DNA from: Ferrimonas kyonanensis DSM 18153
GTDB taxonomy: Bacteria > Pseudomonadota > Gammaproteobacteria > Enterobacterales > Shewanellaceae
Direction of reading: 5' to 3'
Length of the DNA: 32,000 bases
NCBI RefSeq assembly: GCF_000425405.1
Contig: NZ_AUDJ01000029.1
Span: forward strand, 14,000-45,999
Positions 1 to 28,430 of the stretch are shown piece after piece. Position numbers and translations under genes: made by a program. A model generated the notes under the pieces. It ran no database searches. It was not told the origin of the DNA and worked only from the letters and a program-made list of their open reading frames with translations. Within the stretch, counting starts at the first letter, position 1, and each line of letters opens with the position of its first letter.

Positions 1-428
1 TGTTCAGTTCGATCAGCGGCAAGGACAAGATGCACCGCAAGTTGCTCAGCAATTACAAAAAGATGATGTCAAAGCTCTACAGCTTTGGTTTTGCCGACCT
101 GAAATTGCTGAAGATCTACGATGTGATGGATCAGGAGCTCAACAGCTTACCTCAAGCCGGACCCATTGATGGCGACGCCCTCAATCGCATGGTTCGCTGG
201 GCGGGGGTGCTGGCTTCTGAGGCGTGCCTGGAACTGCACCTTTCGGGGCAGGATCAGCTGGCGCAGAGCCCGAACGTCACGGCCGGCTCGACCAGTTCAT
301 CGGCAGATTCAACTGCTAATCAACCAGCCAAATCGGTGCCAGCAGCTTCAACGCAAGCACCATCTAATGCAAACACGCCATTAAGCCCTGCTGTACAGCA
401 AGGCTCATTTGGTTTTTCCAATTTCTAA
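1..428 (+). CDS. 3' end of a CDS that begins upstream of the window. It has a low-complexity S/T/A/Q-rich C-terminal tail and may be the ATPase partner of the downstream VWA protein.
   Basis: The reading frame is open from base 3 with no stop until 426-428. The listed ATG at 30 is internal. A G/C hairpin and the next gene's SD follow directly. The function is guessed from the adjacency that is typical for MoxR/CobS-like ATPase and VWA gene pairs. Confidence 0.5.
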   Translation, partial: FSSISGKDKMHRKLLSNYKKMMSKLYSFGFADLKLLKIYDVMDQELNSLPQAGPIDGDALNRMVRWAGVLASEACLELHLSGQDQLAQSPNVTAGSTSSSADSTANQPAKSVPAASTQAPSNANTPLSPAVQQGSFGFSNF

Positions 429-434
429 TCACCC

Positions 435-453
435 GCCCCCCTTATTGGGGGGC
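435..453 (+). other. Intercistronic G/C hairpin (gcccccc-ttatt-ggggggc)
   Basis: A perfect 7-bp stem read directly from the sequence, lying between the stop at 428 and the start at 476. Confidence 0.6.
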
Positions 454-475
454 AAATCCAACCGAGGATCCAGTA

Positions 476-2236
476 ATGAAAGTTACTATTGCAAGGAAGG
501 TAAATGCCCTGCTGCGTGTCATGTCACCTCAAGCTTCCATTAAGGTGGTTTTTGGCCGTGGCGCGTCAGTCAGTTTCGCGAAAGATGTTCTTACGTTGCC
601 AGTGATTGATTTTAATGACGCCGACCAGCTTCGCCTGTTGGAAGGATGCATGGATCATGAAATCGGCCACGTGGATGAAACTGACACCGCGGCAGGCAGG
701 GAGGCCGTTCGCTTATATCCTCCCGTGGTTAGAGATCTTTGGAATTGCATTGAAGATGTACGCATGGAGAAGTGTCGCATCGAAAAGTGGCCAGGCAGTC
801 GTCGCAATCTCTCAGGGCTGGTAGACCAAGCCATCAAGCAGGACTGGTTCGCAGTGCCCGATGAGAGTCGGGTGAATTGGTTGCTGATTTCGAGCCTGCT
901 TTACCATGGTCGTACACATCACCTGCAGCAAGACCAGTTGCGTGGCTTTAACGATGTCGCCCAGCGATTGCTGCCGCGGTGCTTCGCTCCAGAGGTCGTA
1001 AGCGCCATTCAGTCGGTACACGCTGGCTGGAGTGATCTGTCGTCCAGTTTCGACTGCCTGGAGGCTGCGGTGTCTGTCTACAAGGCACTGAAGTCATCCA
1101 CGGAGTGCTCCGAGGACGATACCCAAGATCCTGGCGACGACGCTGCCCCTGGCACCGGCGGTGAGTCCGGTGACGCCGATGACCAGCCCGAGGACGCCGA
1201 CGGTGAGTCCGGTGACGCCGATGGCCAGCCCGAGGATGCCGACAGTGAGTCCGGTGACGCCGATGGCCAGCCTGAGGATACCGATGGTAAGTCAGACGGC
1301 GCCGACGGCGTGCCAGATGATGCCTCCGGCAATGATGGCAGCGACCAGCATAAAGCTCGTAACGCGGCTGAGGTGATAGAGGCTGACGAAACGATGCCGG
1401 ATCTTCATGATCTGGTGCGGGGTTTGTTGGAGCAGCACCACAGCGAACTCAATGCCCAGGATCGCTTACACCCCTTGATGCCTCAGCTCGAAACGGTCTT
1501 CTGTAGGCCGGGCCGAGTCGAACTCGACCAGGCTGTCGTCTCCACAACCAGACAGGTGTTTCAGCAAGCCATGATTGCTAGGCGGGCTAAGCCCGTAAGG
1601 CATGACCGGCGAGGCACCCACGTGAACCCTAACAGGTTGGCAGGTATTGGCTGTGGCAGACTCGAAGTGTTCAGGCGCCGGCAACAGCGCAGAGATGTAA
1701 CGGGTGCTGTAGGGTTCGTGGTTGATTCATCATCGAGTGTCAACACCAGTCAAATGGTAGAGATCAACAAGCTGGTACTGTCCATGACCACTGCCATCAC
1801 TGGTTTGCGTGGTTTGGACGCTGCTGCCTTGTACTATCGGACCAGCCAAGACTTCCAACATGAACTCACCCCTGAGCGTGATGCCTATCTGGCGCTGAGC
1901 TTTGGCGACAAGGTTAGGCCTGATCGCTTTGGGGTATGGTCGAGTGGTGGCACACCAACGGGCAACGCCATGATGACCATGGCCTACCAGCTTGCTGGTC
2001 AGGAGGTGGACAAGAAGGTGATGATTGTCGTCACCGACGGCGAGCCAGACAGTCATGAGACCGTTGAACAAGCTTTGGCGCTTTGTGCTGACCTCGGTAT
2101 CCAGGCTTTTTGCCTCGGGTTTAACGATGCGGTTCAAGGTGGTTTTGACGATGCAGACTATGCCTTCATCGGCGAGCATCTTGAGTCTGCTCAAGCAGTA
2201 ATTCGGACCGAGTTGAAGCGGCGTTTGTTCGCCTAA
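476..2236 (+). CDS. VWA-domain protein (CobT-like or MoxR-associated type) with an N-terminal HExxH metallopeptidase-like motif and an acidic tandem-repeat linker
   Basis: A 586-aa ORF with the SD gaggat upstream. HEIGH is at aa 61-65 (nt 656-670). The C-terminal VWA signatures are the MIDAS-like VVDSSSS motif (nt 1724-1738) and VVTDGEPD. The central linker is the repeated 14-mer GESGDADxQPEDAD. Confidence 0.8.
   Translation: MKVTIARKVNALLRVMSPQASIKVVFGRGASVSFAKDVLTLPVIDFNDADQLRLLEGCMDHEIGHVDETDTAAGREAVRLYPPVVRDLWNCIEDVRMEKCRIEKWPGSRRNLSGLVDQAIKQDWFAVPDESRVNWLLISSLLYHGRTHHLQQDQLRGFNDVAQRLLPRCFAPEVVSAIQSVHAGWSDLSSSFDCLEAAVSVYKALKSSTECSEDDTQDPGDDAAPGTGGESGDADDQPEDADGESGDADGQPEDADSESGDADGQPEDTDGKSDGADGVPDDASGNDGSDQHKARNAAEVIEADETMPDLHDLVRGLLEQHHSELNAQDRLHPLMPQLETVFCRPGRVELDQAVVSTTRQVFQQAMIARRAKPVRHDRRGTHVNPNRLAGIGCGRLEVFRRRQQRRDVTGAVGFVVDSSSSVNTSQMVEINKLVLSMTTAITGLRGLDAAALYYRTSQDFQHELTPERDAYLALSFGDKVRPDRFGVWSSGGTPTGNAMMTMAYQLAGQEVDKKVMIVVTDGEPDSHETVEQALALCADLGIQAFCLGFNDAVQGGFDDADYAFIGEHLESAQAVIRTELKRRLFA
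1160..1327 (+). repeat. In-frame 42-bp tandem repeat: three good copies plus one degenerate copy, encoding the acidic 14-aa unit GESGDADGQPEDAD
   Basis: Units at 1160-1201, 1202-1243 and 1244-1285 are near-identical. Unit 1286-1327 is diverged. All are in frame with the VWA CDS. Confidence 0.9.
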
Positions 2237-2246
2237 CACTAACACA

Positions 2247-2288
2247 CCCATGCGGGGACACCCCCGCATGGGGGCTGTCCCCTTTTTT
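2247..2288 (+). terminator. Double hairpin followed by a T-run, placed after the VWA gene
   Basis: The first stem is cccatgcgggg-acac-ccccgcatggg, the second is gggg-ctgt-cccc, and tttttt follows. Confidence 0.65.
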
Positions 2289-2383
2289 ATCGGAGGCAGC
2301 TCACTGCCTTCACCTGCGGGTATCGCCAATGAGCTCGCTTGGAGCTTATTGGGATACCCGTAGGCACCAAATTGGAGGCAGTT

Positions 2384-3439
2384 ATGCAGAGTAATAAAAT
2401 TCAAGTAGCTAAGGAGCTAATCGACCGAAACGGTGGCATGGAAGTGCTGTTTCACTCGGCATTTCCAGAGTTGGATCTCGCCATAAAGCGTGCGCCTGCC
2501 CAGGTGCCGTGCCCGAAAACTGGTGAAGGCAATACGCGCTTTCGTCTGTTCCGGGATTGGCGAGAGACTGGAGGTGGCCGCACCAACGATGAAGTGATGG
2601 CTGATGTCATTGATCTCGTCGCCTATCTACGCGATATGAGCAAAGGTCAGGCGGCGGATTGGTTGATTGACTACTTCGGTGGCAATCGTGACATTCAAGT
2701 GCCCAACAGGGTGCGTCGACCCGTTGCTTATTGTAGTGAGGCAGAGGTCAGCAAACGTATCGGTCACATCAACAAGTTGAGCGCCAAGGCGGTCAGTGCA
2801 AATCGTGCCGACCCGGTACGGCTGTATTGCCAGCACCGCCGAATCGACTTTCCTGTATTACCGAGTTGTCTGGGTTATTGCGAAGATACCTACCATCCCA
2901 TACTGAAGACCTCTTTGCCGGCGATGCTGGCTCAGGTGGTCAACAAGGAGGGGTTGCTGGTGACGCATCATCGCACTTACATCACCCACGATGGCTACAA
3001 GGCGCCTATTGATCCTGAAGTTCAGAAGCTGATGATGCCCAGCGCCAGCACGCCAAATGGCTGCGCGATTCGGTTGTTTGAATCGTTGCAGCTGGCGGAT
3101 GGGAGTTACGCAGTTGCATTGAGCGAAGGGATTGAGACGGCGATGTCGATGACCAAGGTCACCGGTATTCCATGCTGGGCCGCAATTAGCAACACCATCT
3201 TGGAGAGGGTAGAGCTGCCAGATGATATTCGCCATGTGTTCATCATGGCGGATCGCGATCTGAACCAAGCAGGCTACAACTCCGCGGTGGTGTTGATGGA
3301 GCGGCTACAACGCGCAGGCCTCAACGTGGAGATCTATCTGCCACCTGAGGAGTTCCGGCCGGGGGAAAAAGCCGACTGGAATGATGTGCTGCGTGATGGC
3401 TATCCACACTTGTTTCCTTACTATCAAGAGGCGGCGTAA
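2384..3439 (+). CDS. Toprim-domain protein: a primase-like protein with a degenerate N-terminal primase-type zinc-ribbon region
   Basis: ATG at 2384 sits 5 nt after ggagg, so the listed TTG start at 2339 is less likely. The Toprim motifs are LSEGIETAMS (conserved Glu) and IMADRDLNQAG (DxD). The N-terminal PCPKTGEGNTRFRLF resembles the CPxCGGxDRFR ribbon but has lost most of its Cys residues. Confidence 0.8.
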   Translation: MQSNKIQVAKELIDRNGGMEVLFHSAFPELDLAIKRAPAQVPCPKTGEGNTRFRLFRDWRETGGGRTNDEVMADVIDLVAYLRDMSKGQAADWLIDYFGGNRDIQVPNRVRRPVAYCSEAEVSKRIGHINKLSAKAVSANRADPVRLYCQHRRIDFPVLPSCLGYCEDTYHPILKTSLPAMLAQVVNKEGLLVTHHRTYITHDGYKAPIDPEVQKLMMPSASTPNGCAIRLFESLQLADGSYAVALSEGIETAMSMTKVTGIPCWAAISNTILERVELPDDIRHVFIMADRDLNQAGYNSAVVLMERLQRAGLNVEIYLPPEEFRPGEKADWNDVLRDGYPHLFPYYQEAA

Positions 3440-5898: not shown

Positions 5899-6016
5899 AT
5901 TGGTAAATACGGAAAACAGGAGGGACCACCTCAGAAGACGATTTGATGTGCGAATGCGGTTGGGGCGGCGCAGACGCCAGTTTTAGCTACAGAGAAAGAA
6001 TGACCTTTTAAACAAG

Positions 6017-6042
6017 ACCCGCCTGGTGGCGGGTTTTTTTTT
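6017..6042 (+). terminator. Rho-independent terminator that closes the 0-6 kb operon
   Basis: The stem-loop is acccgcc-tggt-ggcgggt, followed by a run of nine T. Confidence 0.85.
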
Positions 6043-6203
6043 GGTTCACCTCTAATAAATGCAGGAAACCACCCTTAATCGGCTCGGTATCTGCAAAAAC
6101 TCTCATTAGCCAGCTCGCATACTAAGAATGCTAATGGACCTTTCACCTGGCGTTCACACTCGTGTGGCCATGGGGGGCTGTAACGTCAATGGAGAACGTA
6201 CTG

Positions 6204-8054
6204 ATGAGATTGATGAGTGGACTAGCTGCGCTGCTATATCTGTTGCCGTCGCTAGCATCCGACGTCACCATGGAGCTTGGTGAATTACATGCGCTGGCTG
6301 TTAATAAGCCGCTGTTTGACGGGAATTCTAAGCCGCTTTCGGTGATCAGGGGGACCGGGACAACTGAGCTCGGCTTTCCCATGGAGGGACCGCAGAATGC
6401 CGTGTTGACTTTGGATCCAACGGCCGACTTTCCCATCATTGTTGCTGGTGTTGAGATCCAGCCTGGCGAGACGGTTTCTCTGAAGGTGACGGTCGCTGAT
6501 CCTAAGCGTGGGTTTGAAGTGCCTGTATACCCAGGTGTTGAAGGTGTGCTTGGTTCGGCCCCATTTGTTATGACTATTGATCGGGTTTATGGACGAGGAT
6601 GCCCGGACAGCTATGAGTTTTCGGAAGAAAGCTGCACGCAATTCCGTACTATGGTTGTTGATTGGTACTGTCAAGACGCTAGCTATCAACTTAAAAGTAA
6701 TCAGGAGTGCCACAAGCCTCAGTATGAGTCGATGATCAAGAGTTGCCCAAGCGGTTTCTCTCTTGAATATTCGTCGAATACTTGCAGTAAATTTAAGCAG
6801 GTTGTGGCCAACAAAACCTGTGCTGCAGGTTTTGATTTGAACAGTAGCAGCTGCATCAAGTTATTGACCGCGAGCCTGCAGTTTACCTGTTCGTCTGGTT
6901 TACTACATGGTGAGCAATGTATTGGTACTACAGTAACCCCTGCAACAGCTTATTGTGCCAATGGATATGCGCAACGAAATGGCCGTTGCGAATTGATGTT
7001 AATTGAGGAGCCTATATACAGTTGCAGTGGAGGGACCTTAAGTGGTGGCCGTTGTATAACTCAATTAACGGAGCCGGCAACAAGTTCTTGCCCGGTTGGC
7101 TTCTATAGCTCGGGCTCGTCATGTAATAAGCAAACCACTATCGCTGCAACTGCGTTTTGTGAAGTTGGGACATTGTCCGGCGCCAGTTGTGTTTCAATTG
7201 CCTCTAAGCCAGCAAAATTGAATTTTGAGTATGGATGTCCTGATGGTGGTAGTCTCAAGCCTGGTAACGTCTGCTACCAACTATATTCTTCGCACAAAAG
7301 CATGGCTTTACCGGAAGGGAGTGGTTGGGATTGCACAAATGAGGATGTGATGCCAGGAGAGCCAGCGACTCTGATATGTGAGAGAACATATTCGGCTTCG
7401 ATGATGGGAACATCCTATTCCTGTGAAACGGGCTGGAGTGTAATTGGCTCGAACTGTCAAAAATCGACTAGTACAGCGGTGGCCTATTCTTGCACCAGTG
7501 GCTACACACTGTCTGGAAGCAACTGCTTGAGAAACACGACTACTGGTTTGGTGTACAGCTGCGCAAACGGGACACTTAGTGGCAATGTATGCTTGGTTAG
7601 CAATTCTAGTGATGCGGAAATGAGTTGTGCGTCTGGCTTTTCAATCAACGAGACCTCTTGTACCAAACTATTGCTCAAACCATATGATTACCAATGCAGC
7701 TCTGGCTGGGATCTGTCTGGCAGCTCTTGTTCACAGGCAACAAGCTCGGCAGCGACGCCTTTCTGTGAGCCTGATTATTCGATTAGTGCAGGCAAGTGCA
7801 TAAAGACACTGGTTACCAGCGTTGACTACGAGTGTGAACCCGGCTGGGTCTTATCTGGGAGTAAATGCAGCACAACATTGAAACAGGCTGCAATTCAGGA
7901 AGGGTGCCCGATTGGTTCTCAGCCTCATCAAGGGGATCAGTGCATAAATATGCTGATCGTTTCAGCCCTACCGCGTTGTGAATCGCCGTATCTCTTTGAT
8001 AGCGTCAATTTGCGCTGCGAGTACACAGACATTAAGCCGATAGGGTTTTATTGA
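6204..8054 (+). CDS. Secreted cysteine-rich repeat protein: a Cys-free N-terminal domain followed by 20 two-cysteine units
   Basis: ATG 6204 is preceded by ggaga and yields the Sec-type signal peptide MRLMSGLAALLYLLPSLASD. The 40 Cys occur strictly in pairs spaced 9-14 residues apart, with the modal unit C-x2-G-[FYW]-x-L-S-G-x2-C. Confidence 0.85.
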   Translation: MRLMSGLAALLYLLPSLASDVTMELGELHALAVNKPLFDGNSKPLSVIRGTGTTELGFPMEGPQNAVLTLDPTADFPIIVAGVEIQPGETVSLKVTVADPKRGFEVPVYPGVEGVLGSAPFVMTIDRVYGRGCPDSYEFSEESCTQFRTMVVDWYCQDASYQLKSNQECHKPQYESMIKSCPSGFSLEYSSNTCSKFKQVVANKTCAAGFDLNSSSCIKLLTASLQFTCSSGLLHGEQCIGTTVTPATAYCANGYAQRNGRCELMLIEEPIYSCSGGTLSGGRCITQLTEPATSSCPVGFYSSGSSCNKQTTIAATAFCEVGTLSGASCVSIASKPAKLNFEYGCPDGGSLKPGNVCYQLYSSHKSMALPEGSGWDCTNEDVMPGEPATLICERTYSASMMGTSYSCETGWSVIGSNCQKSTSTAVAYSCTSGYTLSGSNCLRNTTTGLVYSCANGTLSGNVCLVSNSSDAEMSCASGFSINETSCTKLLLKPYDYQCSSGWDLSGSSCSQATSSAATPFCEPDYSISAGKCIKTLVTSVDYECEPGWVLSGSKCSTTLKQAAIQEGCPIGSQPHQGDQCINMLIVSALPRCESPYLFDSVNLRCEYTDIKPIGFY

Positions 8055-8289
8055 GGCATAGTTATGTTTTACTGGACCGCAACAACCTTGATTTTTTGAG
8101 TTCAAAAACTACGAAATGGCGCACGGTTAATTCATGAAGTTTATCTATTCAAAGTTGCTGGCTTAAGGCCACATATTTTGGAGGAAATGGTCAGGTTGCA
8201 TTGATTTCTAACTGACGCCGACTAGGCGCTGTGATTCGTAATTTAAATGGTGTTAGCTCATGATTACTAGCACTATTCATGCGCTATGT

Positions 8290-8311
8290 CATTGAAAATT
8301 ATCTTTCAATG
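8290..8311. promoter_or_regulatory. Inverted repeat cattgaaa-N6-tttcaatg, upstream of the 8350 ORF
   Basis: A perfect 8-bp palindrome with arms 6 nt apart, about 40 bp upstream of the ATG, in AT-rich DNA. Confidence 0.3.
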
Positions 8312-8349
8312 TAATAGAAAGCATTCTTGAATTACAAATAGTTGTCCTT

Positions 8350-9051: not shown

Positions 9052-10443
9052 TTACAGGAAATCTTTCATTGATGGGATCTGCTTAGCTTCCTCCATCATC
9101 TCAGCGCAAGCTGCTTCGACAATCTCCTTACAAAGCTCGACGTGGGCCCTTTCCGCTTTAGTAAGCCCCATCTCCTCAACTTCCTTCAGAGCATATGGCA
9201 GAGCCTGAGTGATACGGTTTATCACATCCAGAGTTAGAAGCTGCATGCGTTCAAGACTGATACCCAGCGTGTTGGCAAAATCTGCCAGTGCAAAAGCGGT
9301 CATTGGGTCTTCAAAGTTGCCGGGGGTGCCAGCCTCGTACTCGCCAATAGACATGGCGTAGAAGCGAGGTGTGCTCTGATCCCTGCCCTGAGCGGACAAT
9401 GCCTCGGCATCTTGTCGTGCCTCTGCCTCACGATACAGTGCCTCGATGTTCACTAGGTCGTAGAAAGGGGTGAGCTGTAACCCTCTTCTACCCACAAAGA
9501 AGCTTATGTTCTTGCCATGAGCGTCGAAGTTGCGGTTTAAGACGTTGAAGACCACCCACTGAACCAGTTGGCGGTGATAAGTCAGTTGGTCATTGGTTTG
9601 GACTGCGGCCAGCTTCGGCAAGGAAACGCCATCCCTGTACATCCTGGCGTCTGGCCCGTCGCCGTTCTGTCGCTCGTACTTATATGCTGATGGAAGATTA
9701 GTGGCCTGGCAGCCATCAATAACGTGGCGCCTGGATACTCGATTTTCATCCAGCAAGTATCTGCGGTCAAAGCGATCGACAATCAGGGTGCGAACCCCAC
9801 CAAATGTAGTAATTCGGGTAGTGGCCACCTGATCAAGGGTGCGTCGGGCCAATGCCATTGTGAAGGCCTCATTGACCACAATATTTGGCACTCTTCCTGA
9901 TTCGAACTTGTAGATGGTGTTGGAGCAGAGCTCGCCCTCACCAAGCCCGAACTGGTCACCTATCTCCAGGATGTTGAGCTTATCCTGAACACCGGCCACC
10001 GACAGGCGGGTGCGGCCGTCCCAGTAAGTAATGAGCCCTGCATTCTGAAGGCGTTGCCCCATCTCCTCATCGGTGATGACCCGAAAAGAGGACGCCTCCT
10101 GCTGAAATCCGGGAGCCGTGAAAGAGAGAGCGCCGGCGGTCTCGGTGCCAATACGACCTACCAGCGCAAACACGTTGGCTCGGGCAATAGTGGTGTTTTC
10201 CAGTAGCTCATCCAGCCCCTTACCTTCCGGTATCAGGTTCTCCAGGAAGTTGCGGACGTTGCGAGGAGGGATGTCCTCGTTGAAGGGCAGGTGCGGTGAT
10301 ACCGGGTAACCATTTTCGAGCCAAGCAGGGTCATAAGTAAACTCAAACTCGCTAACACTGCCAACAGGCAGCGCAAGGATCCCAACTAGGTCTTTCTGAG
10401 CTAGTCGAACCTCAAGCAGCTGGCGGTCAGGTCCAGTCATCAT
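9052..10443 (-). CDS. hipA: Type II toxin HipA-family serine/threonine kinase
   Basis: The N-terminal HipA motif is LSVAGVQDKL. The catalytic-loop motif is FDAHGKNISF (D-x-H-x-K-N). The protein is 463 aa, and its 5' end overlaps hipB by 17 nt. Confidence 0.9.
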   Translation of the reverse strand: MMTGPDRQLLEVRLAQKDLVGILALPVGSVSEFEFTYDPAWLENGYPVSPHLPFNEDIPPRNVRNFLENLIPEGKGLDELLENTTIARANVFALVGRIGTETAGALSFTAPGFQQEASSFRVITDEEMGQRLQNAGLITYWDGRTRLSVAGVQDKLNILEIGDQFGLGEGELCSNTIYKFESGRVPNIVVNEAFTMALARRTLDQVATTRITTFGGVRTLIVDRFDRRYLLDENRVSRRHVIDGCQATNLPSAYKYERQNGDGPDARMYRDGVSLPKLAAVQTNDQLTYHRQLVQWVVFNVLNRNFDAHGKNISFFVGRRGLQLTPFYDLVNIEALYREAEARQDAEALSAQGRDQSTPRFYAMSIGEYEAGTPGNFEDPMTAFALADFANTLGISLERMQLLTLDVINRITQALPYALKEVEEMGLTKAERAHVELCKEIVEAACAEMMEEAKQIPSMKDFL

Positions 10444-10744
10444 CTACCTCCGGGTGAACATGAAAGGGTGACAAGGAACTTGGCTCATCGGTCCTTATCT
10501 GGAATGACAGGCCCAGGTACTCCATAACCTTGAGGACGTTGTTAAGGTTGACGCCGATATCGCCTTTCTCGATCTTCACCAGGGTACTCTTTGACATGCC
10601 AAGAGTATCCGCGACATCCGCCTGGCGCAGGTTAAGCGTGGTGCGCTTGGAGGTAATCGCTTTTGCCAGCTGCAGTGGCGTGAATGGGAGCCGCAGATCG
10701 GGCATGGCCACTGGTTGGACAGATTTCCCTTTTCTCATGTTCAT
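10427..10744 (-). CDS. hipB: HipB-type XRE-family HTH antitoxin
   Basis: FTPLQLAKAITSKRTTLNLRQADVADTLGMSKSTLVKIEKG aligns with the E. coli HipB HTH. The acidic tail ends in DDDWT, and E. coli HipB also has a near-terminal Trp. The start is ambiguous: ATG 10744, 10738 or 10705, none with a good SD. Confidence 0.85.
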   Translation of the reverse strand: MNMRKGKSVQPVAMPDLRLPFTPLQLAKAITSKRTTLNLRQADVADTLGMSKSTLVKIEKGDIGVNLNNVLKVMEYLGLSFQIRTDEPSSLSPFHVHPEVDDDWT

Positions 10745-10924: not shown

Positions 10925-11693
10925 ACCTTCTTGATGTAGATGTTGTAGCGGATTCCTAGGGACTGATTTCGGCTTTGGCGCAAGCCTGTTGAGCTGTATC
11001 GCCACAACCGCTACAAGCAACGGTGTTATGGACAGGATTTTTGTACTGATGGATGTGCTACTGAAGTCACAGACCTATAGCTGTATTGGCAAGCGAGCCA
11101 AGACCGTTGAAATCAAGTATCGATGCCTCCGCGTAGACCGGTAGCCAGTCTTGTCATTGATGCCACTGGGTTATGACGAGGGAGAATGGAAGATGTGTAA
11201 GCATGGCAAGGAGAAGCGGCATGTCTGGCGCATGCTTCACCTTGCTGTTGATGACCAAACTCACGAAATGAGTGCTGCGGAAGTGAGCCTTGAAAACGTG
11301 GTCGACAACGAGGCACTCCTAACACTGTTGAGCCCTCTAACGGCCAACTATGCGTCAGGCATCAACCGATGATGAATATGACAGCAAGGCGTGCCATAAA
11401 CTGACGAAACGGAGTGGCAAAAAGCCTTCCATCCCGCCACTTAAGATTGTCGGTTACTGGGCGGATGGCCACCCAAGAATTGAGGAGCAATGAATTGTAG
11501 CAGTGGAAACGGGACAATGACTACAGCGCCTAGTCGGAGAAGCGTTGGCTGGAGTCAAAGCGATGAAAAAAGTCATAGAAATGGGTATGCCTATTCGACT
11601 GCGAACTGCCCAGATAACGATTTCCCTTGAGGCAATTGCGTCTCAAGCCTGGGTTTGATCGAGAAGCTACCTAGCAACATTATCAACTTAACC
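10925..11693 (+). mobile_element. Decayed IS5-family (IS903-group-like) insertion sequence remnant: a 5'-truncated transposase pseudogene
   Basis: Translations in shifting frames match the IS903-type transposase as I recall it. Examples are RIFVLMDVLLKSQTYSCIGKRAKTV, LVIDATGL (frameshift) YDEGEWKMCKHGKEKRHVWRMLHLAVDDQTHE, then a stop and a further frameshift, then KKVIEMGMPIRLRTA. The possible right end ATTATCAACTTAACC at about 11679-11693 resembles the IS903 terminal repeat. About 55 N-terminal codons and the left inverted repeat are missing. Confidence 0.75.
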
Positions 11694-11915
11694 TATTACA
11701 AGACCAATTTGTTGTGGCGTTAAGGGCTTTAAAGAAAGCGTTTAATGGTTGTTTCGCCTGCCCAGAATCGCTCCTGTTGTCAATTTAATCGCGAGGACAT
11801 TTATAGTCATCTATCGCATTTTTTTCGTCAAATTTGACATGAAATCTCTTTTTTGTTGTTGTCTTCTTATGCTAAGTTTGGGGTCTTGTTATAAATTCGT
11901 TGGAGTTTATCTGTT

Positions 11916-13340
11916 ATGCGGTTAAATAGTTTTGTTGTTATATTGCTTTTGATGCTCTTTGCATTTCCATCGTTTTCTGCTCTTAAGCCACCACCGCCAC
12001 CTAAAAAGGAACCAAGTCCATATCACTGGGTTAATTGTGTTGATTTGGAGCCAGAGTTCTCTCCTTTAAAGGCAGAAAAATTTGATGTTCCCGCAAACTC
12101 AGAGTATACACGATGCTTTAGAATGACCGGACACAACGACTCTGTTGTTTTAATTACTCAACGCTTCTATTTGAATGATGTGGATAATATACAGGTTTTT
12201 GTTGCTAACGATAAAAACTCTCCATATGAAGCATACAGAAAAATAAACTTCAACAACGTTAATTCCGAAGTTATGAATGCTTCTAAAATAGCTGGAGGAG
12301 ATTCTGATGATGAGATTAGAGTTGTTGTGAAGTTCTCACCTCATTCCGCAGAGCGAGAGCTTGTCATATCATATGGGATGTCCACTGAAGGTACAGGGTT
12401 GTTAACTTTAGGAGTTGCTTCTAACGGAGGGGAACAAACTCAAGGTGATGAGTATAAAGGGCCGAGTACTTACCATATGGACTTTTCAAACCAGGATGGC
12501 ATACAATCAATAAACAGTGAGTTAGAACGATATGATATTTCTAGATACAATAGAAATAGTGAACAATTCGAGTGTTCTCCAGGAGAGGTTCCGCCGGAAG
12601 GAATTAGTGATAACGAGCCGTTGAACTCGGCATTGTTACCAGTGGAGGCGCACAATCTTAGTTTATATGTTGAAGATGATCTGGCTAGAAAGGTAATAGG
12701 AGAAGTGGTTGGATCTACCGAGGACCGCGCATTGAGAATGGCCGCTGCAACTACCGCATACATAAAGTCTAAGTCATACAATAAAAAGGAGCATAGATCA
12801 TTTTACCTTGGAGCCGCGGAAAAGGTGGCGGGTCATTTGTCTGTAAATTCAATGCTTGACTCTCTTTCTGGAGATGTTGATATAAATGCATATAATAATG
12901 GCGTAAGTTATGGATCCCGTTTCTTGAATGACCCCATACGATATGAGTACATCGATTCTTGCAGTAAGGAAAAAATCCATGATACAGGTGTTTGCATATC
13001 ACGTGAATTTAAATTCAGATTCACTGGCATGACTGCTAATCGATGGTATTATAGAAAGTTTCCATATTATTTTGGTGAGAGAGTTAACCTGCATGTTTCA
13101 GCTAATCTCTATAGTTTTCCTGATAGAATCAAAGCGGATTCACTAGGAGGAAGTGAAAGAAATATTACGGAGCTATATTATAGCCCAGGTTACATGAAAG
13201 GAATAGTTGCACACCTATTTTCAGTTTCCGACCATAGTGATAATAAACACGGACCAATACAGTTTTGGGCTATACCTATGAAGGGGGTTGGGGTTTCTGC
13301 CGCGGAAATATCTGTTAAGTGCACGCCGATAGAATGGTGA
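11916..13340 (+). CDS. Secreted protein of unknown function (474 aa), AT-rich
   Basis: The signal peptide is MRLNSFVVILLLMLFAFPSFSA, followed by a PPPPPKK stretch. The N-terminal roughly 130 aa look weakly like a PPC/pre-peptidase-type beta-sandwich. The gene is much more AT-rich than its flanks. Confidence 0.75.
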   Translation: MRLNSFVVILLLMLFAFPSFSALKPPPPPKKEPSPYHWVNCVDLEPEFSPLKAEKFDVPANSEYTRCFRMTGHNDSVVLITQRFYLNDVDNIQVFVANDKNSPYEAYRKINFNNVNSEVMNASKIAGGDSDDEIRVVVKFSPHSAERELVISYGMSTEGTGLLTLGVASNGGEQTQGDEYKGPSTYHMDFSNQDGIQSINSELERYDISRYNRNSEQFECSPGEVPPEGISDNEPLNSALLPVEAHNLSLYVEDDLARKVIGEVVGSTEDRALRMAAATTAYIKSKSYNKKEHRSFYLGAAEKVAGHLSVNSMLDSLSGDVDINAYNNGVSYGSRFLNDPIRYEYIDSCSKEKIHDTGVCISREFKFRFTGMTANRWYYRKFPYYFGERVNLHVSANLYSFPDRIKADSLGGSERNITELYYSPGYMKGIVAHLFSVSDHSDNKHGPIQFWAIPMKGVGVSAAEISVKCTPIEW

Positions 13341-13907
13341 TTAAAATATTTACCATTTGAATTTAAGTGTATCTGATTACGTTTTTTAACTTATTAATTC
13401 TTCTATTTAAGAGGGTTAGTTGCATTAAGCATATTTATGGTTCTTCACAAATTGGCGGGAGCAGGATACAAAAACGGCTGGAAACGTTATAGTTTCATTG
13501 TACAGCCAACCAGCCGTTTTTGATGTCGAAGCTTACCTTACCAATCCCCTTCTAGGACGGCTTTTAATTGTCCATACCGATGTTCACCAGCATAATTTTA
13601 CCATTTACTTGTCTTCCCACGACCATAGCAGGTGTCGCTTGCGCAACAGGTTTCTGTAATTCAAATGGCTAACAAGGATAAAAGAGCAAGGGGAGAAGCC
13701 AAAAAAACTAAAATGCGTAAGCGAAAGGAATTCGTTAATAGCTTAAGTGGAAAGCTTGAGCCCGTGCTCGATAATCCTCGATAGGGAGTTTATTCAGTAT
13801 TCTGGCTATGGCAGGGAATAGGTAAGCTGTGATTCATTTTTCGACCTGCCATCGGAGGCGTTTGTCACATAAGCGAGGATTTGTAGATGTAGTCCGTGAG
13901 TTAGCTG

Positions 13908-14248
13908 TTAAGGATTTTTAGAGATTATATTTCTTCTTTTTTTGTCAGTGACAAAGCCCTCTAGAACTGAGTACATATTAGGACATGTCTCGGAAATCAC
14001 CTTCAGTCCCTCAGAGCACTTAGGATTGCCCATCATGGCTGTGCCAACACCACAAGGGAGAATCGTATACTCTATGAAATTTCGATCTATCTTTCCTCTT
14101 GACCCATTAATACACTCTTCTTTGTAGTCATGTTTATTGAGTTCAATAGTCAGAATAGCTTCCTTGATGTGATTAATATTTACATCGGTTTCTTTTGCGC
14201 AGCCAGATATGACTATAGCGGAAAAGAGACCAAGGTTATAGTTTTCAT
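13908..14248 (-). pseudogene. Small lipoprotein gene disrupted by a 1-nt frameshift in the A4 run right after the ATG
   Basis: ATG at 14248 gives MKTITLVSFPL-stop. Shifting one base gives (MK)NYNLGLFSAIVISGCAKETDVN... and the frame stays open to the stop at 13908. That is a textbook lipoprotein signal with the lipobox ISGC. An A5 run instead of A4 would restore MKNYNLGLFSAIVISGC. Confidence 0.6.
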
Positions 14249-14438
14249 TATTATTTTTATTCTTTATGAAGTTACGCGTATTTTATCCGTTGGCAAAACC
14301 AAAGATAAACTTTGTATATGGCTAAGTAAAATTTTCGAATCTATCAATAAGTCAACATCTAATGCTTATTCATAAAAATCAATAATTAGAATATTTAAAT
14401 TGATTTTAATGTTGGTTGTTAAACTGACATCATTAATT

Positions 14439-15458
14439 TTAAATATGTAGCTTTCTTAAAGCATCGCGCATCTTTTGCTCATCGCGCTTATCATATCGCT
14501 GGGTTGTGCGAAGATCAGAATGTCCCAACAAACGCTGCACAATCAAAATGTCGACGCCGGCATTGAGTAAATTAGTGGCAAAAGTTCGTCGCAAATCGTG
14601 AGGAGAGAACTTCTGTGTTCCAGCAATTGCTTGCAAGTGCTCAAGCGCGTTACGCACTCCAGAGACACCCAGAGGAAGCGATTTTGGGTGTACCTGATTA
14701 TTCCTGTTGGTCCGATAAAACAGCGGCCCAGGCTGATCCCCGCGTAGTGCAAGGTACTTATGCAACGCCGCTAGGGCCCGGGGGCTAAGCTCTAACACTC
14801 GTTCTTTGTTACCCTTTCCTAGGATCCGCATGGTGCGCTCGTACTTATTGAAGCTGGCCATGGACAGGCCTACGGATTCCTCCCTGCGCAGCCCCAGATC
14901 GGTCATTAGCAGCACCAGTGCGGCGTCGCGGGCTGCTCGGAATGGGGGAAATCTCGCTGCTTGCTCCACAAGTAACTCTATTTCTTGGGGTGTGAGTTCA
15001 CGGCCAGCAGGCGCACGAGTGCCTTTTACTGGCTTCACTTCTTTAATGAGCATGTAGGTATGAGCATCGATAAGTTGCAGTCTAAAGCAATGAGAAAGCA
15101 CCCCTTTAATAGCCGCCAGGTAAAGATTGCTGGTGTTTGGTGCTAAGCTTTGAAGCATGTTTGATTCTTCGACACTTTCTTTGGACTGTGTCATAGAGCT
15201 CAGGGTAAATAAATGGTTTTTGAACTTATTAATGGTCAGGTAGGTTAATTTATGCCATGGAAATGTGAAAGGATCATTCCAGTCGAAGCGTCGGGCAACG
15301 TTACTTAGGACATATTCCATGCGAGATTTAGAATTGGCAGAAGGCAAGTCATCCAAGTAGGCTGTGACAGCCACACGGGTTAATTCATTGGTGTGATCGA
15401 CACCGTTTAAAATAATTTCTGAGTTGGGTTGTGCTGCTAGTACCAATTCGTTGCTCAT
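14439..15458 (-). CDS. Tyrosine recombinase / phage-type integrase
   Basis: The full catalytic set is present: GLRREE (Arg), GKGNKER (Lys), HDLRRTFA (His-x-x-Arg), LLGHSDLRTTQRY (His and Tyr). The SD is aggaac. Confidence 0.9.
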   Translation of the reverse strand: MSNELVLAAQPNSEIILNGVDHTNELTRVAVTAYLDDLPSANSKSRMEYVLSNVARRFDWNDPFTFPWHKLTYLTINKFKNHLFTLSSMTQSKESVEESNMLQSLAPNTSNLYLAAIKGVLSHCFRLQLIDAHTYMLIKEVKPVKGTRAPAGRELTPQEIELLVEQAARFPPFRAARDAALVLLMTDLGLRREESVGLSMASFNKYERTMRILGKGNKERVLELSPRALAALHKYLALRGDQPGPLFYRTNRNNQVHPKSLPLGVSGVRNALEHLQAIAGTQKFSPHDLRRTFATNLLNAGVDILIVQRLLGHSDLRTTQRYDKRDEQKMRDALRKLHI

Positions 15459-15874
15459 TAGTTCCTAAGTCCATCTTGGTGCCGATCCAGGCGATCCCGG
15501 TTAATGATCGAAGAGTGTATAAATATAGTCTACTGCCTACTCCTGGTTGATTACAACAATAAAGACGCATTTACTGCTCTAATGTTTGGAGGGGGAGGGA
15601 CCTAAAAATTGGTACTCCTGTGTGAAATCTGGAACAGGGTAGGGCGCAAACCTCTAAAAGATTCGCGTAGCGCAACGTTGTTTTGACTGTTTTTGCTGGG
15701 TGGCCACCGCTGTAACCGTTGGTATGACTGGGTTTTGAGGGTGATTTAGTGCCGAAATCAACCCAAACGAACGACGCGGTATCTGCCGCATTTTTAACCG
15801 GCCTGGTACGTCCGGTCCCGGCGAGATGAAAAAGCTCCCTAATGGGGGTGGCTCGGCGAGGCGGCACTCCTTCC

Positions 15875-17037: not shown

Positions 17038-17925
17038 ATGGACATTCGTAATCAACTGAAACAGACCTACCGCGACATCGAGGTCAGCCAGCGCCGGCTG
17101 GACTCGGCACTCGATGCCTGCCTGTATGTGCAGGCCAAAGCTTACGAGTTGCCGGCAATCGCCGAGGACGACAGCTTCAAGGCCATCAGCACGCTCGAGC
17201 CGAGTCTAATTGAAGGGTTCACTGCCGAGGCCAAGATCCGTCGTGCCTGGGCCCGCTATTACGTGGACAGCGGCAGCTCCACCCTCTGCTCGGTGAAGAT
17301 GCCTGGGGTCGTTCAATACCAGGCGGCGCCAGGTGAGCTGCAGCGGATCTTTGAGCTGGTAGATGACCTAAATAAGCGCAAGCGGAGGTTTGAAGAGATC
17401 TCCCAGCTGATCGACGATGAGTACGAGCGCCATGCCGCCATCCACGAGCTGTTCCCGCGGCTGCACAACAGGCAGCTGTGCCGGCAGCTGCATTGCGTCG
17501 GCGGCGATTTGGTACCAGACAGCATCGGCTTTAGCTTCAGCAATAAAGTGGTGGCGCACCAGGTGAGCGTTGACGCTACCCTCACCCGCCTGGAACAGAC
17601 GCTCGGCCATTCACTGCTGGCCGCCGCTGACGCCCAACTTGCACGCGCTCGAAGAGACAAGATCCTAGATCTGCAGCAGCAGTACGGCGATGATCTGGTC
17701 CTGGTACACCGCCGCTTCGGTAAGGTGCAGCCGATCTATAACCTGCGCTACGATCGCCAAGTTAGGCAGAAACCGGCCTCGATGCCGCTGCTCCTGCTGA
17801 CCACCACAACAGGCCCGGTGAAACTCAACAACCTGGCCAGCTACAGCATGCGAGTACCGGAGCTTACCGGTGGGGAGTTCCTGGATCCGACCAGTCCTAT
17901 ATATTGGCGAGCCGGCACAGATTAG
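17038..17925 (+). CDS. tus: DNA replication terminus site-binding protein (Tus) homologue
   Basis: Block-wise similarity runs along the whole length against E. coli Tus as I recall it. The blocks are VKMPGVVQYQ vs VRLPGVLCYQ, IHELFPRL vs VHRHLPGL, GFSFSNKVV vs RFGWANKHI, LTRLEQTL vs LAQLEKSL, and FGKVQPIYNLRY vs VKVQPIARVWY. The size is similar: 295 vs 309 aa. Confidence 0.7.
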   Translation: MDIRNQLKQTYRDIEVSQRRLDSALDACLYVQAKAYELPAIAEDDSFKAISTLEPSLIEGFTAEAKIRRAWARYYVDSGSSTLCSVKMPGVVQYQAAPGELQRIFELVDDLNKRKRRFEEISQLIDDEYERHAAIHELFPRLHNRQLCRQLHCVGGDLVPDSIGFSFSNKVVAHQVSVDATLTRLEQTLGHSLLAAADAQLARARRDKILDLQQQYGDDLVLVHRRFGKVQPIYNLRYDRQVRQKPASMPLLLLTTTTGPVKLNNLASYSMRVPELTGGEFLDPTSPIYWRAGTD

Positions 17926-19556: not shown

Positions 19557-20817
19557 CTATCGCACCGAAGGGATTTCTTCCCACCGGGTCAAGCTGCGCG
19601 GTGAATGCCGAGCACCATTGTCAGCAGAACGGTCACCCAGCTTTTGGGCTGCTATCTGCAGGCTATGGGTGCCGTACTTTGACTGAATGGCCTTGATGCC
19701 TGCCATCAGCTTGTCTGCCCCCTTACGCACCGGTGCATCAAACAAGCCCAGTTGACACTCATCGCGGTTACAAGGGTCAAGAGCGCCCACGGTGACCCGC
19801 CCAATAGGCACTCCGGGCCGGTAAGCCAACTCCACCGCCTTAGCCGCGGCGGTAGCCAGCTCCCTAATGTCGTCCGTTGGGTAAGCGAGCCGTAGCCGTT
19901 GACTGTGCCCCCAACGCACAGATCGGTCGAATGGGCTAGAGGAAAGCTGCAGTAGGTACTCACTGGCCACCAGGTCATGATCCCTGAGCTTTTTCGCCAC
20001 GGTAGACACCCTCTCCATCACTCCCGGCATCAAGGTCACCAGGGCAACCGGCTTCTCCTTCAATGAGCGAGAGCTCATGATTTGCTGGCGATTACTGACG
20101 TCCATGTCCGCCACCCGCATGCACTCCTTACCGTTCAACTCCAGATGCGTGCGTTCCAGGGTGACGCCGTGTAATCGCCTCAGGCTGAGCCGATCGTACT
20201 GAGCCAGGTCCCACGCAGTCCGAATACCTGCTGCCTCCAGCCTAGGCGCCAACCTCCGTCCCACACCCCAGACGTCGCCGACGCTGATGGTGGCCAGCAA
20301 CAGCCTGTCTGGGCGCTCCAGGATACATAGACCACGGTAGTCAGGGTGAGACTTGGCCAGCTCACTGGCCGCTTTGGCCAAGGTGATTGTGGGGGCGGCA
20401 CTGAATTTACAGCCCAGCCGCAGCTCGGTCCAGATCTGCTTCCGCACCGAGCGCCCCTCACCGATGAGGTCACCACGACTTGGCAGCTTGATCAGGCTTT
20501 CGTCCACAGAATACGGGGTAGCACAGGCGCCGTATCTCTGATTCAGAAGGTCATGAAAACGGTGGCTCATCTCGCTAAAGAGCTCGAAGGTTGAGCTTCT
20601 GCGGATCAGAGCATCGCGTTGGTGCTTGGGCAGCGCATCGGTTTGCTGCCAGAGCGGAACGAACTTTTTTAAGGCCCATGGCCTTCGCCTCAGGCGAAAT
20701 GGCCACCACAACGCCGTCATTGGAGCTGGTGACAATGACAGGTCTACCCCGCGTCGCAGGCTCCAGGCTTTGGATCATCGACGCATAGGCACTGGTCAGG
20801 TCGATTAGAGCCCACAT
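19557..20817 (-). pseudogene. umuC: umuC (Y-family DNA polymerase V catalytic subunit) interrupted by a frameshift in an A6 homopolymer
   Basis: The N-terminal MWALIDLTSAYASMIQ...PVIVTSSNDGVVVAISPEAKAMGLKK (frame of ORF 20575-20853) matches UmuC MFALCDVNAFYAS...PVVVLSNNDGCVIARNAEAKALGVK. The remainder, FVPLWQQ...SVDESLIKL...VWGVGRR, is in the frame of ORF 19557-20735. The switch occurs at TTTTTT 20665-20670 on the plus strand. The total span of 1261 nt equals 420 codons plus 1. Confidence 0.85.
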
Positions 20818-21194
20818 GAGGACGGGGACAGTTCGGGGATGGGGTGCCAGCATCGAATGGATCGGATGACGACCCCCTCAATGGCAAAGGCGGCTGGGCC
20901 ACATAGAGCCAGCCGCTCGGTTGCAGTGGCCAACTGGCCCGCTTCCACATCGAGAAAGCCTATTCGAAACTCGCCATCCACAGCACAAACGACCAGGTCA
21001 CCCGTTTTGGCTTCACGGCCGCGCTCCACGATCAGCAGATCGCCTTGATGGATGCCAACGGTTGAGAATTCATTGGTATCACAGCGCATGAACAGGCTAG
21101 CCGCCGGCTTATCAATCAGTAGGGAGTCAAGGCTGAGGACACCAACCTGCATGTCTTCGGCCTGGCTTGGCCAGCCCTGGATTGGATAACTCAT
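20805..21194 (-). CDS. umuD: UmuD-like protein lacking the N-terminal arm and the Ser/Lys catalytic dyad (UmuD'-like)
   Basis: IQGWPSQAED vs UmuD VQCGFPSPAAD, GDLLIV is identical, and AVDGEF is identical. Its 3' end overlaps the umuC start by 13 nt. I chose the start at ATG 21194 because the LexA box lies inside the longer listed ORF. Confidence 0.75.
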   Translation of the reverse strand: MSYPIQGWPSQAEDMQVGVLSLDSLLIDKPAASLFMRCDTNEFSTVGIHQGDLLIVERGREAKTGDLVVCAVDGEFRIGFLDVEAGQLATATERLALCGPAAFAIEGVVIRSIRCWHPIPELSPSSCGL

Positions 21195-21209
21195 GATCGA
21201 TCGACACCA

Positions 21210-21225
21210 CTGTTTATTTATACAG
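21210..21225 (-). promoter_or_regulatory. LexA (SOS) box CTGTTTATTTATACAG
   Basis: A perfect CTGT-N8-ACAG with an AT-rich spacer, 16 bp upstream of the umuD-like start. On the coding strand it embeds a TATAAA -10-like hexamer. Confidence 0.85.
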
Positions 21226-28419: not shown

Positions 28420-28430
28420 ACCGCCACTCC

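What the first reader, a model, noticed from the sequence alone, without database searches (positions are those of the whole stretch)
6204..8054. Secreted 616-aa protein built from 20 consecutive two-cysteine units (C-x2-G-[FYW]-x-L-S-G-x2-C)
- **Architecture.** After a Sec signal peptide and a Cys-free domain of about 125 aa, all 40 cysteines fall into 20 pairs. Within a pair the spacing is 9-14 residues, mostly 9-10. The pairs are separated by Thr/Ser-rich linkers of 6-12 residues (nt 6600-8018).
- **Examples.** YSCSGGTLSGGRC, YSCTSGYTLSGSNC, YQCSSGWDLSGSSC and YECEPGWVLSGSKC. An aromatic residue usually lies two positions before the first Cys.
- **Resemblance.** The unit recalls the C-terminal two-Cys sub-loop of eukaryotic EGF-like domains (C-x-x-G-[FY]-x-L-...-C). 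It lacks the other four cysteines, so I cannot assign it to a bacterial repeat family that I know.
- **Context.** The gene is lower in GC than its flanks. It lies between a strong terminator and an AT-rich gap, consistent with acquired cargo.
- **Possible roles.** A disulfide-stapled surface fibre, an adhesin, or a receptor-binding protein of the element.
Basis: partly seen in the sequence, partly recalled or inferred. Interest (0 to 1): 0.7.

Follow-up and report, generated by a model that had tools for sequence, protein, structure and literature searches.

The report
Secreted two-cysteine-repeat rod protein
This Ferrimonas gene encodes an exported protein built from 20 disulfide-stapled mini-hairpins, a repeat that also forms part of some TraN mating proteins and giant Ig-like plasmid proteins, so it is probably a surface contact protein of a conjugative element.

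Summary
ORF 6204-8054 encodes a 616-aa protein with a signal-peptide-like N-terminus and a Cys-free domain of about 113 aa. Its 40 Cys form 20 two-Cys units of about 23 aa (35 of 39 Cys gaps are 10-13 residues; 0 of 100,000 shuffles reach that).

It is the annotated "hypothetical protein" of Ferrimonas kyonanensis and matches no Pfam or NCBIfam model. It is not an orphan: 613 clusters (50% identity) match at E<=1e-3. The same unit occurs:
- in long TraN mating-pair-stabilisation proteins, but not in F-plasmid TraN;
- in giant "Ig-like" proteins encoded just upstream of trbC-traU-traN on marine MOBH plasmids;
- fused behind DUF4165+Big_3_3, the architecture of the conjugation-promoting IncHI and IncA/C "Big" proteins;
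- in some RHS-associated proteins.

New points:
- The array splits into 9 + 9 regular units around a variable, aromatic-rich centre. All but three of 15 array-bearing TraNs and many other relatives show the same balance.
- A conserved C-terminal tail co-occurs with the N-domain.

I infer a folded-back stalk carrying a variable distal tip. The likely role is cell-cell contact during conjugation. This is unproven.

The parts
6014..6037 (+). Intrinsic-terminator-like hairpin (10-bp stem, T-run) that ends the upstream transcription unit
   Evidence: sequence
6191..6194 (+). GGAG ribosome-binding site, 9 nt before the ATG at 6204
   Evidence: read directly
6204..8054 (+). Coding sequence, 616 aa plus stop; identical to the Ferrimonas kyonanensis hypothetical protein P0001
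6204..6260 (+). Signal-peptide-like N-terminus (residues 1-19: MR, hydrophobic core, SLA|S)
   Evidence: by inspection. All N-domain-first relatives have a similar N-terminus. No predictor was run.
6261..6599 (+). Cys-free N-domain (residues 20-132), predicted all-beta. It is the most conserved part of the family and matches no curated model.
   Evidence: 35% identity (E 3.5e-15) to residues 707-806 of a Klebsiella IncHI1B DUF4165/Big protein. Found in 46 of 169 relatives. No Pfam or PDB match. Conservation.
6600..7190 (+). N-arm: two-Cys units 1-9 (residues 133-329, 18 Cys)
   Evidence: AF2 pLDDT about 70-78 over residues 150-310.
7191..7421 (+). Irregular, aromatic-rich centre (residues 330-406; Cys 345, 357, 377, 392). 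It is the least conserved segment and the proposed distal tip.
   Evidence: Mostly pLDDT < 50.
7422..8018 (+). C-arm: two-Cys units 12-20 (residues 407-605, 18 Cys)
   Evidence: In the fragment model of residues 401-563, pLDDT is 82-95 over fragment residues 60-160, which are protein residues 460-560.
8019..8051 (+). C-terminal tail EYTDIKPIGFY, fitting the family motif C-x4-7-P-hydrophobic-hydrophobic-end
   Evidence: 22 of 36 N-domain proteins against 3 of 144 other relatives
8055..8349 (.). AT-rich intergenic gap (GC 0.366)
30..3439 (+). Backbone genes of a MOBH-plasmid/ICE-like element: DUF3150, VWA/CobT-like, and DUF7146+Toprim
   Evidence: Pfam. The best plasmid relatives of the VWA protein are the same Pseudoalteromonas and Shewanella plasmids that carry homologues of the finding. 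The Toprim gene is syntenic in L010 and L011.

Best explanation
The gene encodes an exported, disulfide-stapled beta-rod protein. It belongs to a large, uncurated family linked to F-type (MPF_F) conjugation systems, mostly on MOBH-type plasmids and ICEs.

**Shown**
- The architecture is a signal-peptide-like N-terminus, a conserved N-domain of about 113 aa, and 20 two-Cys units.
- The same unit makes up the middle of long TraN proteins.
- The N-domain plus array module forms the N-terminus of giant Ig-like proteins encoded directly upstream of the S26 peptidase-trbC-traU-traN genes.
- In other relatives the module is fused behind DUF4165+Big_3_3. That is the domain set of the secreted IncHI and IncA/C 'Big' proteins needed for conjugation at 25 °C.

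**Inferred**
1. After Sec export, DsbA-type oxidation closes each C-x9-14-C pair. Each unit becomes a small beta-hairpin plus a long linker strand, like the C5-C6 hairpin of EGF, and the units stack into a stiff thin rod.
2. The 9 N-terminal and 9 C-terminal units run antiparallel as a folded-back stalk. The variable, aromatic-rich centre (residues 330-406) sits at the far end as a ligand-binding tip.
3. The conserved N-domain and the conserved C-terminal tail meet at the near end and dock the protein to a partner. The partner could be the outer membrane or T4SS, the pilus, or another Big or TraN protein.
4. The protein promotes donor-recipient contact (mating-pair formation or stabilisation), working like a TraN tip on a stalk but without TraN's membrane base.
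For: **Family size and membership**
- 613 clusters match at E<=1e-3, 253 at <=1e-10 and 41 at <=1e-30.
- Of 169 held relatives, 14 carry the TraN C-terminal domain and 46 carry the query's N-domain. Pfam and NCBIfam confirm the TraN identity.
- P0026 and P0034 are DUF4165 + Big_3_3 + N-domain + array; P0048 has the same layout but only Big_3_3 scored.

**Synteny**
- The giant N-domain + array + Big protein lies just upstream of lepB(S26)-trbC-traU-traN in Shewanella plasmids. V. cholerae pNDM-116-14 has an Ig-like protein in the same position.
- Array-bearing TraNs sit in complete F-type operons that also encode DsbC.
- The window shares its VWA/Toprim backbone with the plasmids that carry homologues.

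**Literature**
- Big proteins with DUF4165+Big_3_2+Big_3_3 are secreted and needed for conjugation (PMC6764697, PMC8730810).
- TraN consists of a base plus a mid-sequence tip that sets recipient specificity (PMC9246713, PMC13104618).

**Unit structure**
- AF2 predicts an all-beta repeat. pLDDT is 82-95 over about 4.5 units in the fragment model.
- cEGF passes its cut-off in relatives.

**Fold-back stalk**
- Arm Cys counts are balanced: query 18|18, P0003 13|13, P0084 11|11, P0030 34|33, P0025 56|56.
- Asymmetry is <=0.1 in 12 of 15 TraNs and in 46 of 132 relatives overall, against about 10% expected by chance.
- The two arms are not direct duplicates of each other.
- The centre is the least conserved part and the N-domain the most conserved.
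- The C-terminal tail motif co-occurs with the N-domain: 22 of 36 against 3 of 144.
Against: - No tra gene is recognisable in the 32-kb window. The rest of the 76-kb contig could not be fetched.
- In the window the gene is a stand-alone unit between a terminator and an AT-rich gap, with low GC3.
- Arm symmetry fails in many relatives, for example P0043 29|17, P0062 14|31, and P0049 with no break. My break-calling was crude.
- AF2 gave no confident global fold: pTM 0.22 for the full protein and pLDDT < 50 over most of the centre. I could not read inter-arm contacts.
- Foldseek found nothing similar in the PDB.
- The same unit occurs in RHS-associated and other non-conjugative proteins. It is therefore a general extracellular module and does not by itself imply conjugation.
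- The link between N-domain and tail motif could reflect shared ancestry only.
- How the protein would cross the outer membrane is unknown.
Confidence: 0.45

Rival explanations
1. General surface or matrix adhesin. The array is a straight spacer, like EGF or CCP strings, that holds the N-domain or the C-terminus away from the cell. The function would be adhesion or biofilm formation and unrelated to DNA transfer. The element merely carries it.
For: - The unit occurs in RHS-associated proteins, in Sushi-containing proteins and in a protein with a prepilin-type N-terminal domain.
- There are no tra genes in the window.
- The gene has low GC3 and is its own transcription unit.
- Many relatives have asymmetric arrays.
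Against: - The relatives closest in architecture are on MOBH plasmids and in the same backbone region.
- The N-domain is shared with the Big proteins next to tra genes.
- Arm balance in the query and in TraNs argues against a simple straight spacer.
Confidence: 0.3
2. Remnant of a larger gene: a truncated giant Ig-like protein or the N-terminal piece of a split TraN. It would have little function of its own.
For: - Natural split TraNs exist. P0014 carries the array part and the next gene carries PF06986. E. coli plasmid CP088671 has two adjacent TraN CDSs.
- Giant relatives begin with the same N-domain plus array.
Against: - The ORF is intact, with its own RBS, signal peptide and the family's C-terminal tail motif.
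- Many free-standing relatives of 440-1,000 aa have the same start and end.
- It lacks the TraN N-terminal region.
- No TraN C-domain gene follows it in the window.
Confidence: 0.07
3. Secreted competitor or exclusion factor. A base-less TraN-like stalk and tip would occupy the recipient-side receptor, or mask the host's own surface, and so reduce redundant mating.
For: - It has the stalk-plus-tip layout of array-bearing TraN but no membrane base.
- Exclusion proteins that act on TraN-mediated contact are known (TraT, Sfx; PMC11493245).
Against: - There is no direct evidence.
- The characterised Big proteins promote conjugation rather than block it (PMC8730810).
- The N-domain is conserved, as expected for a docking module.
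Confidence: 0.08

Closest known systems
Array-bearing TraN proteins of F-type T4SS (for example P0002, P0005, Sphingopyxis pDB-1 TraN, V. cholerae pNDM-116-14 TraN)
   Same: - They carry the same 23-aa two-Cys unit (28-31% identity over 70-80% of the query, E down to 1.7e-48).
- The array is interrupted by an irregular centre with near-equal arms.
- They are extracytoplasmic and disulfide-rich.

   Different: The query lacks TraN's N-terminal region and its C-terminal PF06986 / TIGR02750 domain (the base). It has its own N-domain and tail motif and is not in a tra operon. F-plasmid TraN itself has none of these units.
Plasmid 'Big' proteins of IncHI and IncA/C plasmids (RSP, RSP2, pKAZ3 ALG87338.1)
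   Same: - The query's N-domain is homologous to the ~100 aa that follow Big_3_3 in Klebsiella IncHI1B proteins with this architecture (35% identity).
- Relatives exist as DUF4165 + Big_3_3 + N-domain + array.
- Giant relatives occupy the position just upstream of trbC-traU-traN.

   Different: The query has no DUF4165, Big_3_2 or Big_3_3 domain. The characterised Big proteins are not reported to contain Cys arrays: the Klebsiella example has 2 Cys. The function has been tested only for the Big proteins (PMC6764697, PMC8730810).
cEGF (Pfam PF12662), the C-terminal C5-C6 hairpin of calcium-binding EGF domains
   Same: The local motif [Y]-x-C-x2-G-[FYW]-x-L-x-G-x2-C is shared. Pfam's cEGF model passes its cut-off on units of relatives P0002 and P0007.
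   Different: There are two Cys per unit instead of six. The query itself has no cEGF hit at E<=10. The units repeat head-to-tail with a constant 11-residue linker.
Sushi/CCP (complement control protein) modules
   Same: The central Y-x-C-x2-G-Y-x-L-x-G hairpin motif is shared. A profile of the array gives marginal PDB hits to CR2, SPICE, VCP and DAF (E 2e-4 to 0.4). There is also a weak Pfam Sushi hit (E 4.6).
   Different: CCP modules are about 60 aa with four Cys (I-III, II-IV) and a conserved Trp. The hits are marginal and Cys/Gly/Ser-biased. No homology is claimed.

Membership tests
TraN (mating-pair stabilisation protein, PF06986 / TIGR02750) | Conserved C-terminal TraN domain | tested here: not met
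   No Pfam hit at E<=10 and no NCBIfam hit. A local phmmer search with the P0002 C-domain hits 14 relatives but not the query.
TraN (mating-pair stabilisation protein, PF06986 / TIGR02750) | TraN N-terminal region and a position in the tra operon next to trbC/traU/traF | tested here: not met
   The N-terminal probe does not hit the query. Neighbouring genes are small hypotheticals, a DUF2913-like protein and HipBA.
Plasmid Big proteins (RSP class: DUF4165 + Big_3_2 + Big_3_3) | Presence of DUF4165 and Big_3 domains | tested here: not met
   Pfam finds none in the query. The query shares only the unnamed domain that follows Big_3_3.
Plasmid Big proteins (RSP class: DUF4165 + Big_3_2 + Big_3_3) | Secreted to the medium and required for conjugation | not testable with these tools
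   Known only from experiments on R27 and pKAZ3 (PMC6764697, PMC8730810).
cEGF / EGF-like domains | Score above the Pfam gathering threshold for PF12662 | tested here: not met
   The query has no hit at E<=10. Relatives P0002 (33.1 bits) and P0007 (26.8 bits) pass the 26.6-bit cut-off.
cEGF / EGF-like domains | Six cysteines forming three disulfides per domain | tested here: not met
   There are two Cys per 23-aa unit throughout.
Sushi/CCP | A module of about 60 aa with four Cys and a conserved Trp, scoring above the Pfam threshold | tested here: not met
   Pfam Sushi scores 8.2 bits against a cut-off of 20.7. Profile hits to CCP structures are marginal.
N-domain + two-Cys-array family (uncurated, defined here) | Signal peptide, conserved N-domain, first Cys at about residue 131-153, array of C-x9-14-C units with 11-residue linkers, and a C-terminal C-x4-7-P-hydrophobic tail | tested here: met
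   The Pseudoalteromonas plasmid homologue also has its first Cys at residue 133.
Sec-exported protein | N-terminal signal peptide with n-, h- and c-regions and a small residue at -1 and -3 | tested here: inconclusive
   MR / LMSGLAALLYLLP / SLA|S by inspection, with matching N-termini in relatives. No signal-peptide predictor was available.

The most novel reading that the evidence does not exclude
The two-Cys unit is a length-tunable building block for folded-back stalks. Equal numbers of units on the way out and on the way back set how far a variable tip is held from the cell: 9+9 here, up to 56+56 in relatives. F-type conjugation systems use this device twice, inside long TraN proteins and in a separate family of base-less proteins such as this one. 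That would make reach, and not only tip chemistry, an evolvable factor in mating-partner choice.
Probability: 0.25. Interest if true: 0.7.

Novelty: new variant of a known kind. Interest (0 to 1): 0.5.

Why it matters
- **TraN coverage.** TraN tips and plasmid Big proteins are current targets for understanding, and blocking, the host range of resistance plasmids. The TraN papers I searched describe short, medium, long and V-shaped TraNs, and none of them mentions these Cys arrays. Neither Pfam nor NCBIfam has a model for the unit or for the N-domain.
- **A new module to annotate.** Recognising the module would give a name to hundreds of "hypothetical" or vaguely "Ig-like" proteins on marine and environmental plasmids.
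- **A testable structural idea.** The proposed paired-arm stalk of variable length could be tested directly.
- **A link between two protein classes.** The module connects TraN and the Big proteins, two conjugation-contact protein classes that have so far been treated separately.

Tried and rejected
- **Near-identical DNA.** Searches of E. coli genomes and plasmids found nothing.
- **N-domain homologue search.** The word-indexed search with the N-domain alone returned nothing. The profile search added only 11 new proteins, too few to deepen the AF2 alignment much.
- **Reaching beyond the window.**
  - Both genome-contig scans were empty, and an earlier alignment was too diverse to search with.
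  - Exact-protein look-ups of the edge ORFs failed.
  - The only contig on record for the protein is 8 kb.
  - So I could not check whether the 76-kb contig holds a T4SS.
- **Half-duplication idea.** I rejected the idea that the two arms arose by a recent duplication of one half. Direct pairing of units scores no better than the average pairing, and there is no DNA-level repeat.
- **F-plasmid TraN.** I rejected the idea that canonical F TraN contains the unit.
- **Unannotated ORFs.** ORFs at 21952-31894 gave no usable match in Pfam or NCBIfam; the only Pfam hits were two sub-threshold M50-peptidase matches to ORF 24148-24942. The 842-aa ORF has no plasmid match.
Full report
**1.

The ORF spans 6162-8054 on the + strand. 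The ATG at 6204 lies 9 nt after a GGAG. It gives a 616-aa product identical to an annotated "hypothetical protein" of Ferrimonas kyonanensis, P0001, which is alone in its 90% cluster.

- Residues 1-19 look like a Sec signal peptide. This is by inspection; no predictor was available.
- The first Cys is residue 133.
- The 40 Cys alternate between gaps of 10-13 (inside a unit) and almost always 12 (between units).
- 35 of 39 gaps fall in 10-13, while the best of 100,000 shuffles reached 17.
The looser signature is common: Gly at +3 in 15 of 20 units, and an aromatic at +4 in 12 of 20.
- There is no DNA-level repeat.
- The terminator at 6014-6037, the lower GC (0.484; GC3 0.474 against 0.56-0.68 in most neighbours) and the AT-rich gap at 8055-8349 (GC 0.366) are all confirmed.

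**2. No curated model, but a large family**

Pfam and NCBIfam give nothing for the protein, and PDB sequence search gives nothing. An exhaustive HMMER search of 1.84 billion cluster representatives found 613 clusters at E<=1e-3, 253 at <=1e-10 and 41 at <=1e-30. Members range from 242 to 4,511 aa and carry up to 304 Cys.

**3. Who the relatives are**

- *TraN proteins.* P0002 and P0005 carry PF06986 at the C-terminus and the same Y-S-C-P-S-G-x-T-L-S-G-x-x-C units in the middle. They sit in complete F-type transfer operons that also encode DsbC. F-plasmid TraN has none of these units.
- *Free-standing proteins with the query's architecture.* P0003 and P0004, and a 537-aa protein on a Pseudoalteromonas MOBH plasmid, share the layout. 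The Pseudoalteromonas protein also has its first Cys at residue 133.
- *Giant "Ig-like domain" proteins of Shewanella plasmids.* These begin with the same N-domain plus about 70 units and continue with Big/PKD domains. Their genes lie directly upstream of the S26 peptidase-trbC-traU-traN genes. V. cholerae pNDM-116-14 has an Ig-like protein in the same position.
- *Fusions behind Big domains.* P0026 and P0034 are DUF4165 + Big_3_3 + N-domain + array; P0048 has the same layout, with only Big_3_3 detected.
- *Klebsiella hits.* The 524 Klebsiella plasmid hits match only the query's N-domain. It shows 35% identity to the ~100 aa that follow Big_3_3 in DUF4165/Big_3_2/Big_3_3 proteins of IncHI1B plasmids.
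- *Others.* The unit also occurs in RHS-associated proteins and a few others.

Proteins with the DUF4165 + Big_3_2 + Big_3_3 architecture (R27 RSP, pKAZ3 ALG87338.1) are secreted and needed for conjugation at 25 °C (PMC6764697, PMC8730810).

**4. Context of the gene**

No tra gene is recognisable in the window. Upstream lie DUF3150, VWA/CobT-like and DUF7146-Toprim genes. The best plasmid relatives of the VWA protein are the very Pseudoalteromonas and Shewanella plasmids that carry homologues of the finding. The Toprim gene is also upstream of P0003 and P0004.

The gene therefore travels with a MOBH-type backbone rather than as random cargo. Its low GC3 still allows a separate history. The rest of the contig could not be reached.

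**5. The unit**

- AF2 on the full protein was weak: mean pLDDT 54 and pTM 0.22.
- A 163-aa fragment (protein residues 401-563) with an in-register repeat alignment reached pLDDT 82-95 over fragment residues 60-160, about 4.5 units.
- Each unit is predicted as two short strands around the G-aromatic turn, plus a long strand that starts at the second Cys.
- Foldseek found no PDB counterpart.
- Pfam's cEGF model passes its cut-off on relatives' units.
- A profile of the array hits CCP/Sushi structures only marginally, through the shared Y-x-C-x2-G-Y-x-L-x-G hairpin.
- The array begins with a C1-type Cys and ends with a C2-type Cys. Adjacent pairing therefore leaves no free Cys. This is inference.

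**6. Organisation of the array**

The query has 18 Cys, then an irregular centre (residues 330-406, 4 Cys, aromatic-rich), then 18 Cys.

| Protein | Cys in N-arm | Cys in C-arm |
|---|---|---|
| Query (P0001) | 18 | 18 |
| P0084 | 11 | 11 |
| P0003 | 13 | 13 |
| P0066 | 18 | 17 |
| P0030 | 34 | 33 |
| P0025 | 56 | 56 |
| P0100 (after an extra 12-Cys run) | 21 | 21 |
| P0026 (after an extra 12-Cys run) | 43 | 42 |

- In an automated count, asymmetry of 0.1 or less holds for 12 of 15 TraNs, 12 of 32 N-domain-first proteins and 46 of 132 relatives overall. About 10% would be expected for a randomly placed break.
- There are clear exceptions, so the pattern is not universal.
- The arms are not direct duplicates of each other.
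- In TraN the tip is a mid-sequence insert between base-forming N- and C-terminal parts (PMC9246713, PMC13104618). Equal arms on either side of the centre are what a stalk that goes out and comes back would need.
- The centre is the least conserved part of the family (majority fraction 0.15) and the N-domain the most conserved (0.50).
- A C-terminal tail motif, C-x4-7-P-hydrophobic-hydrophobic-end, occurs in 22 of 36 N-domain proteins against 3 of 144 others. This fits the two chain ends meeting, but shared ancestry could also explain it.

**7. Verdict**

The protein is a real, exported-looking, disulfide-repeat protein of an uncurated but widespread family. The family is tied by homology and synteny to F-type conjugation contact proteins.

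The most likely role is a stalk-and-tip contact protein that helps mating-pair formation. My confidence in this full reading is 0.45. A general adhesin is the main rival. It is neither a TraN nor a Big protein by their defining domains.

Novelty is moderate. It is a new variant of known conjugation surface proteins, with an undescribed repeat module and a testable stalk hypothesis.

Noticed in passing
window 9052-10744 (- strand): A HipA-like kinase (463 aa; Couple_hipA + HipA_C) with an overlapping upstream HTH_3 (HipB-like) gene. This is a toxin-antitoxin pair 1 kb downstream of the finding.
   Followed up: partly
window 17038-17925 (+): A Tus-like replication-terminus-binding protein (Pfam Ter, E 3.4e-32) sits on what otherwise looks like mobile-element DNA, near UmuD/UmuC-like genes (19557-21266, - strand).
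   Followed up: no
window 11500-15500: A low-GC island (GC 0.33-0.42) holds a 474-aa ORF (11916-13340) with no family match and a tyrosine integrase (14439-15458, - strand). A short transposase-like fragment at about 11145-11369 is 58% identical to a stretch of a Klebsiella plasmid.
   Followed up: partly
window 21952-31894: About ten ORFs have no significant Pfam or NCBIfam match (two sub-threshold M50-peptidase hits at 24148-24942 aside). They include an 842-aa ORF (29366-31894, - strand) that has no tblastn match in 72,556 plasmids.
   Followed up: partly
window 26502-27185 (+); L001 11142-11519; L010 9524-9904; L011 9523-9903: A ~126-aa protein is encoded immediately upstream of the finding's homologue in three other elements. 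Its relative in this window (26-28% identity, C-terminal half of the ORF) lies 18 kb away. It may be a partner protein of the family.
   Followed up: partly
L013 10001-13251; L007 1763-5698: These look like split TraN genes. In L013, an N-terminal array-bearing part (P0014, 632 aa) is followed by a separate 451-aa gene carrying PF06986. E. coli plasmid CP088671 likewise has two adjacent 'TraN' CDSs. I cannot tell whether this is a frameshift or a true two-piece TraN.
   Followed up: no
L002 14923-24726 (Shewanella aestuarii pPN3F2_1): A 3,267-aa protein has 152 Cys. About 33 units of period 25 and about 35 units of period 23 flank an irregular centre. The two arms use different unit lengths but have similar total length.
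   Followed up: partly
L002 6123-7361: An annotated IscB RNA-guided endonuclease gene lies on the same Shewanella plasmid, 8 kb upstream of the giant repeat protein.
   Followed up: no
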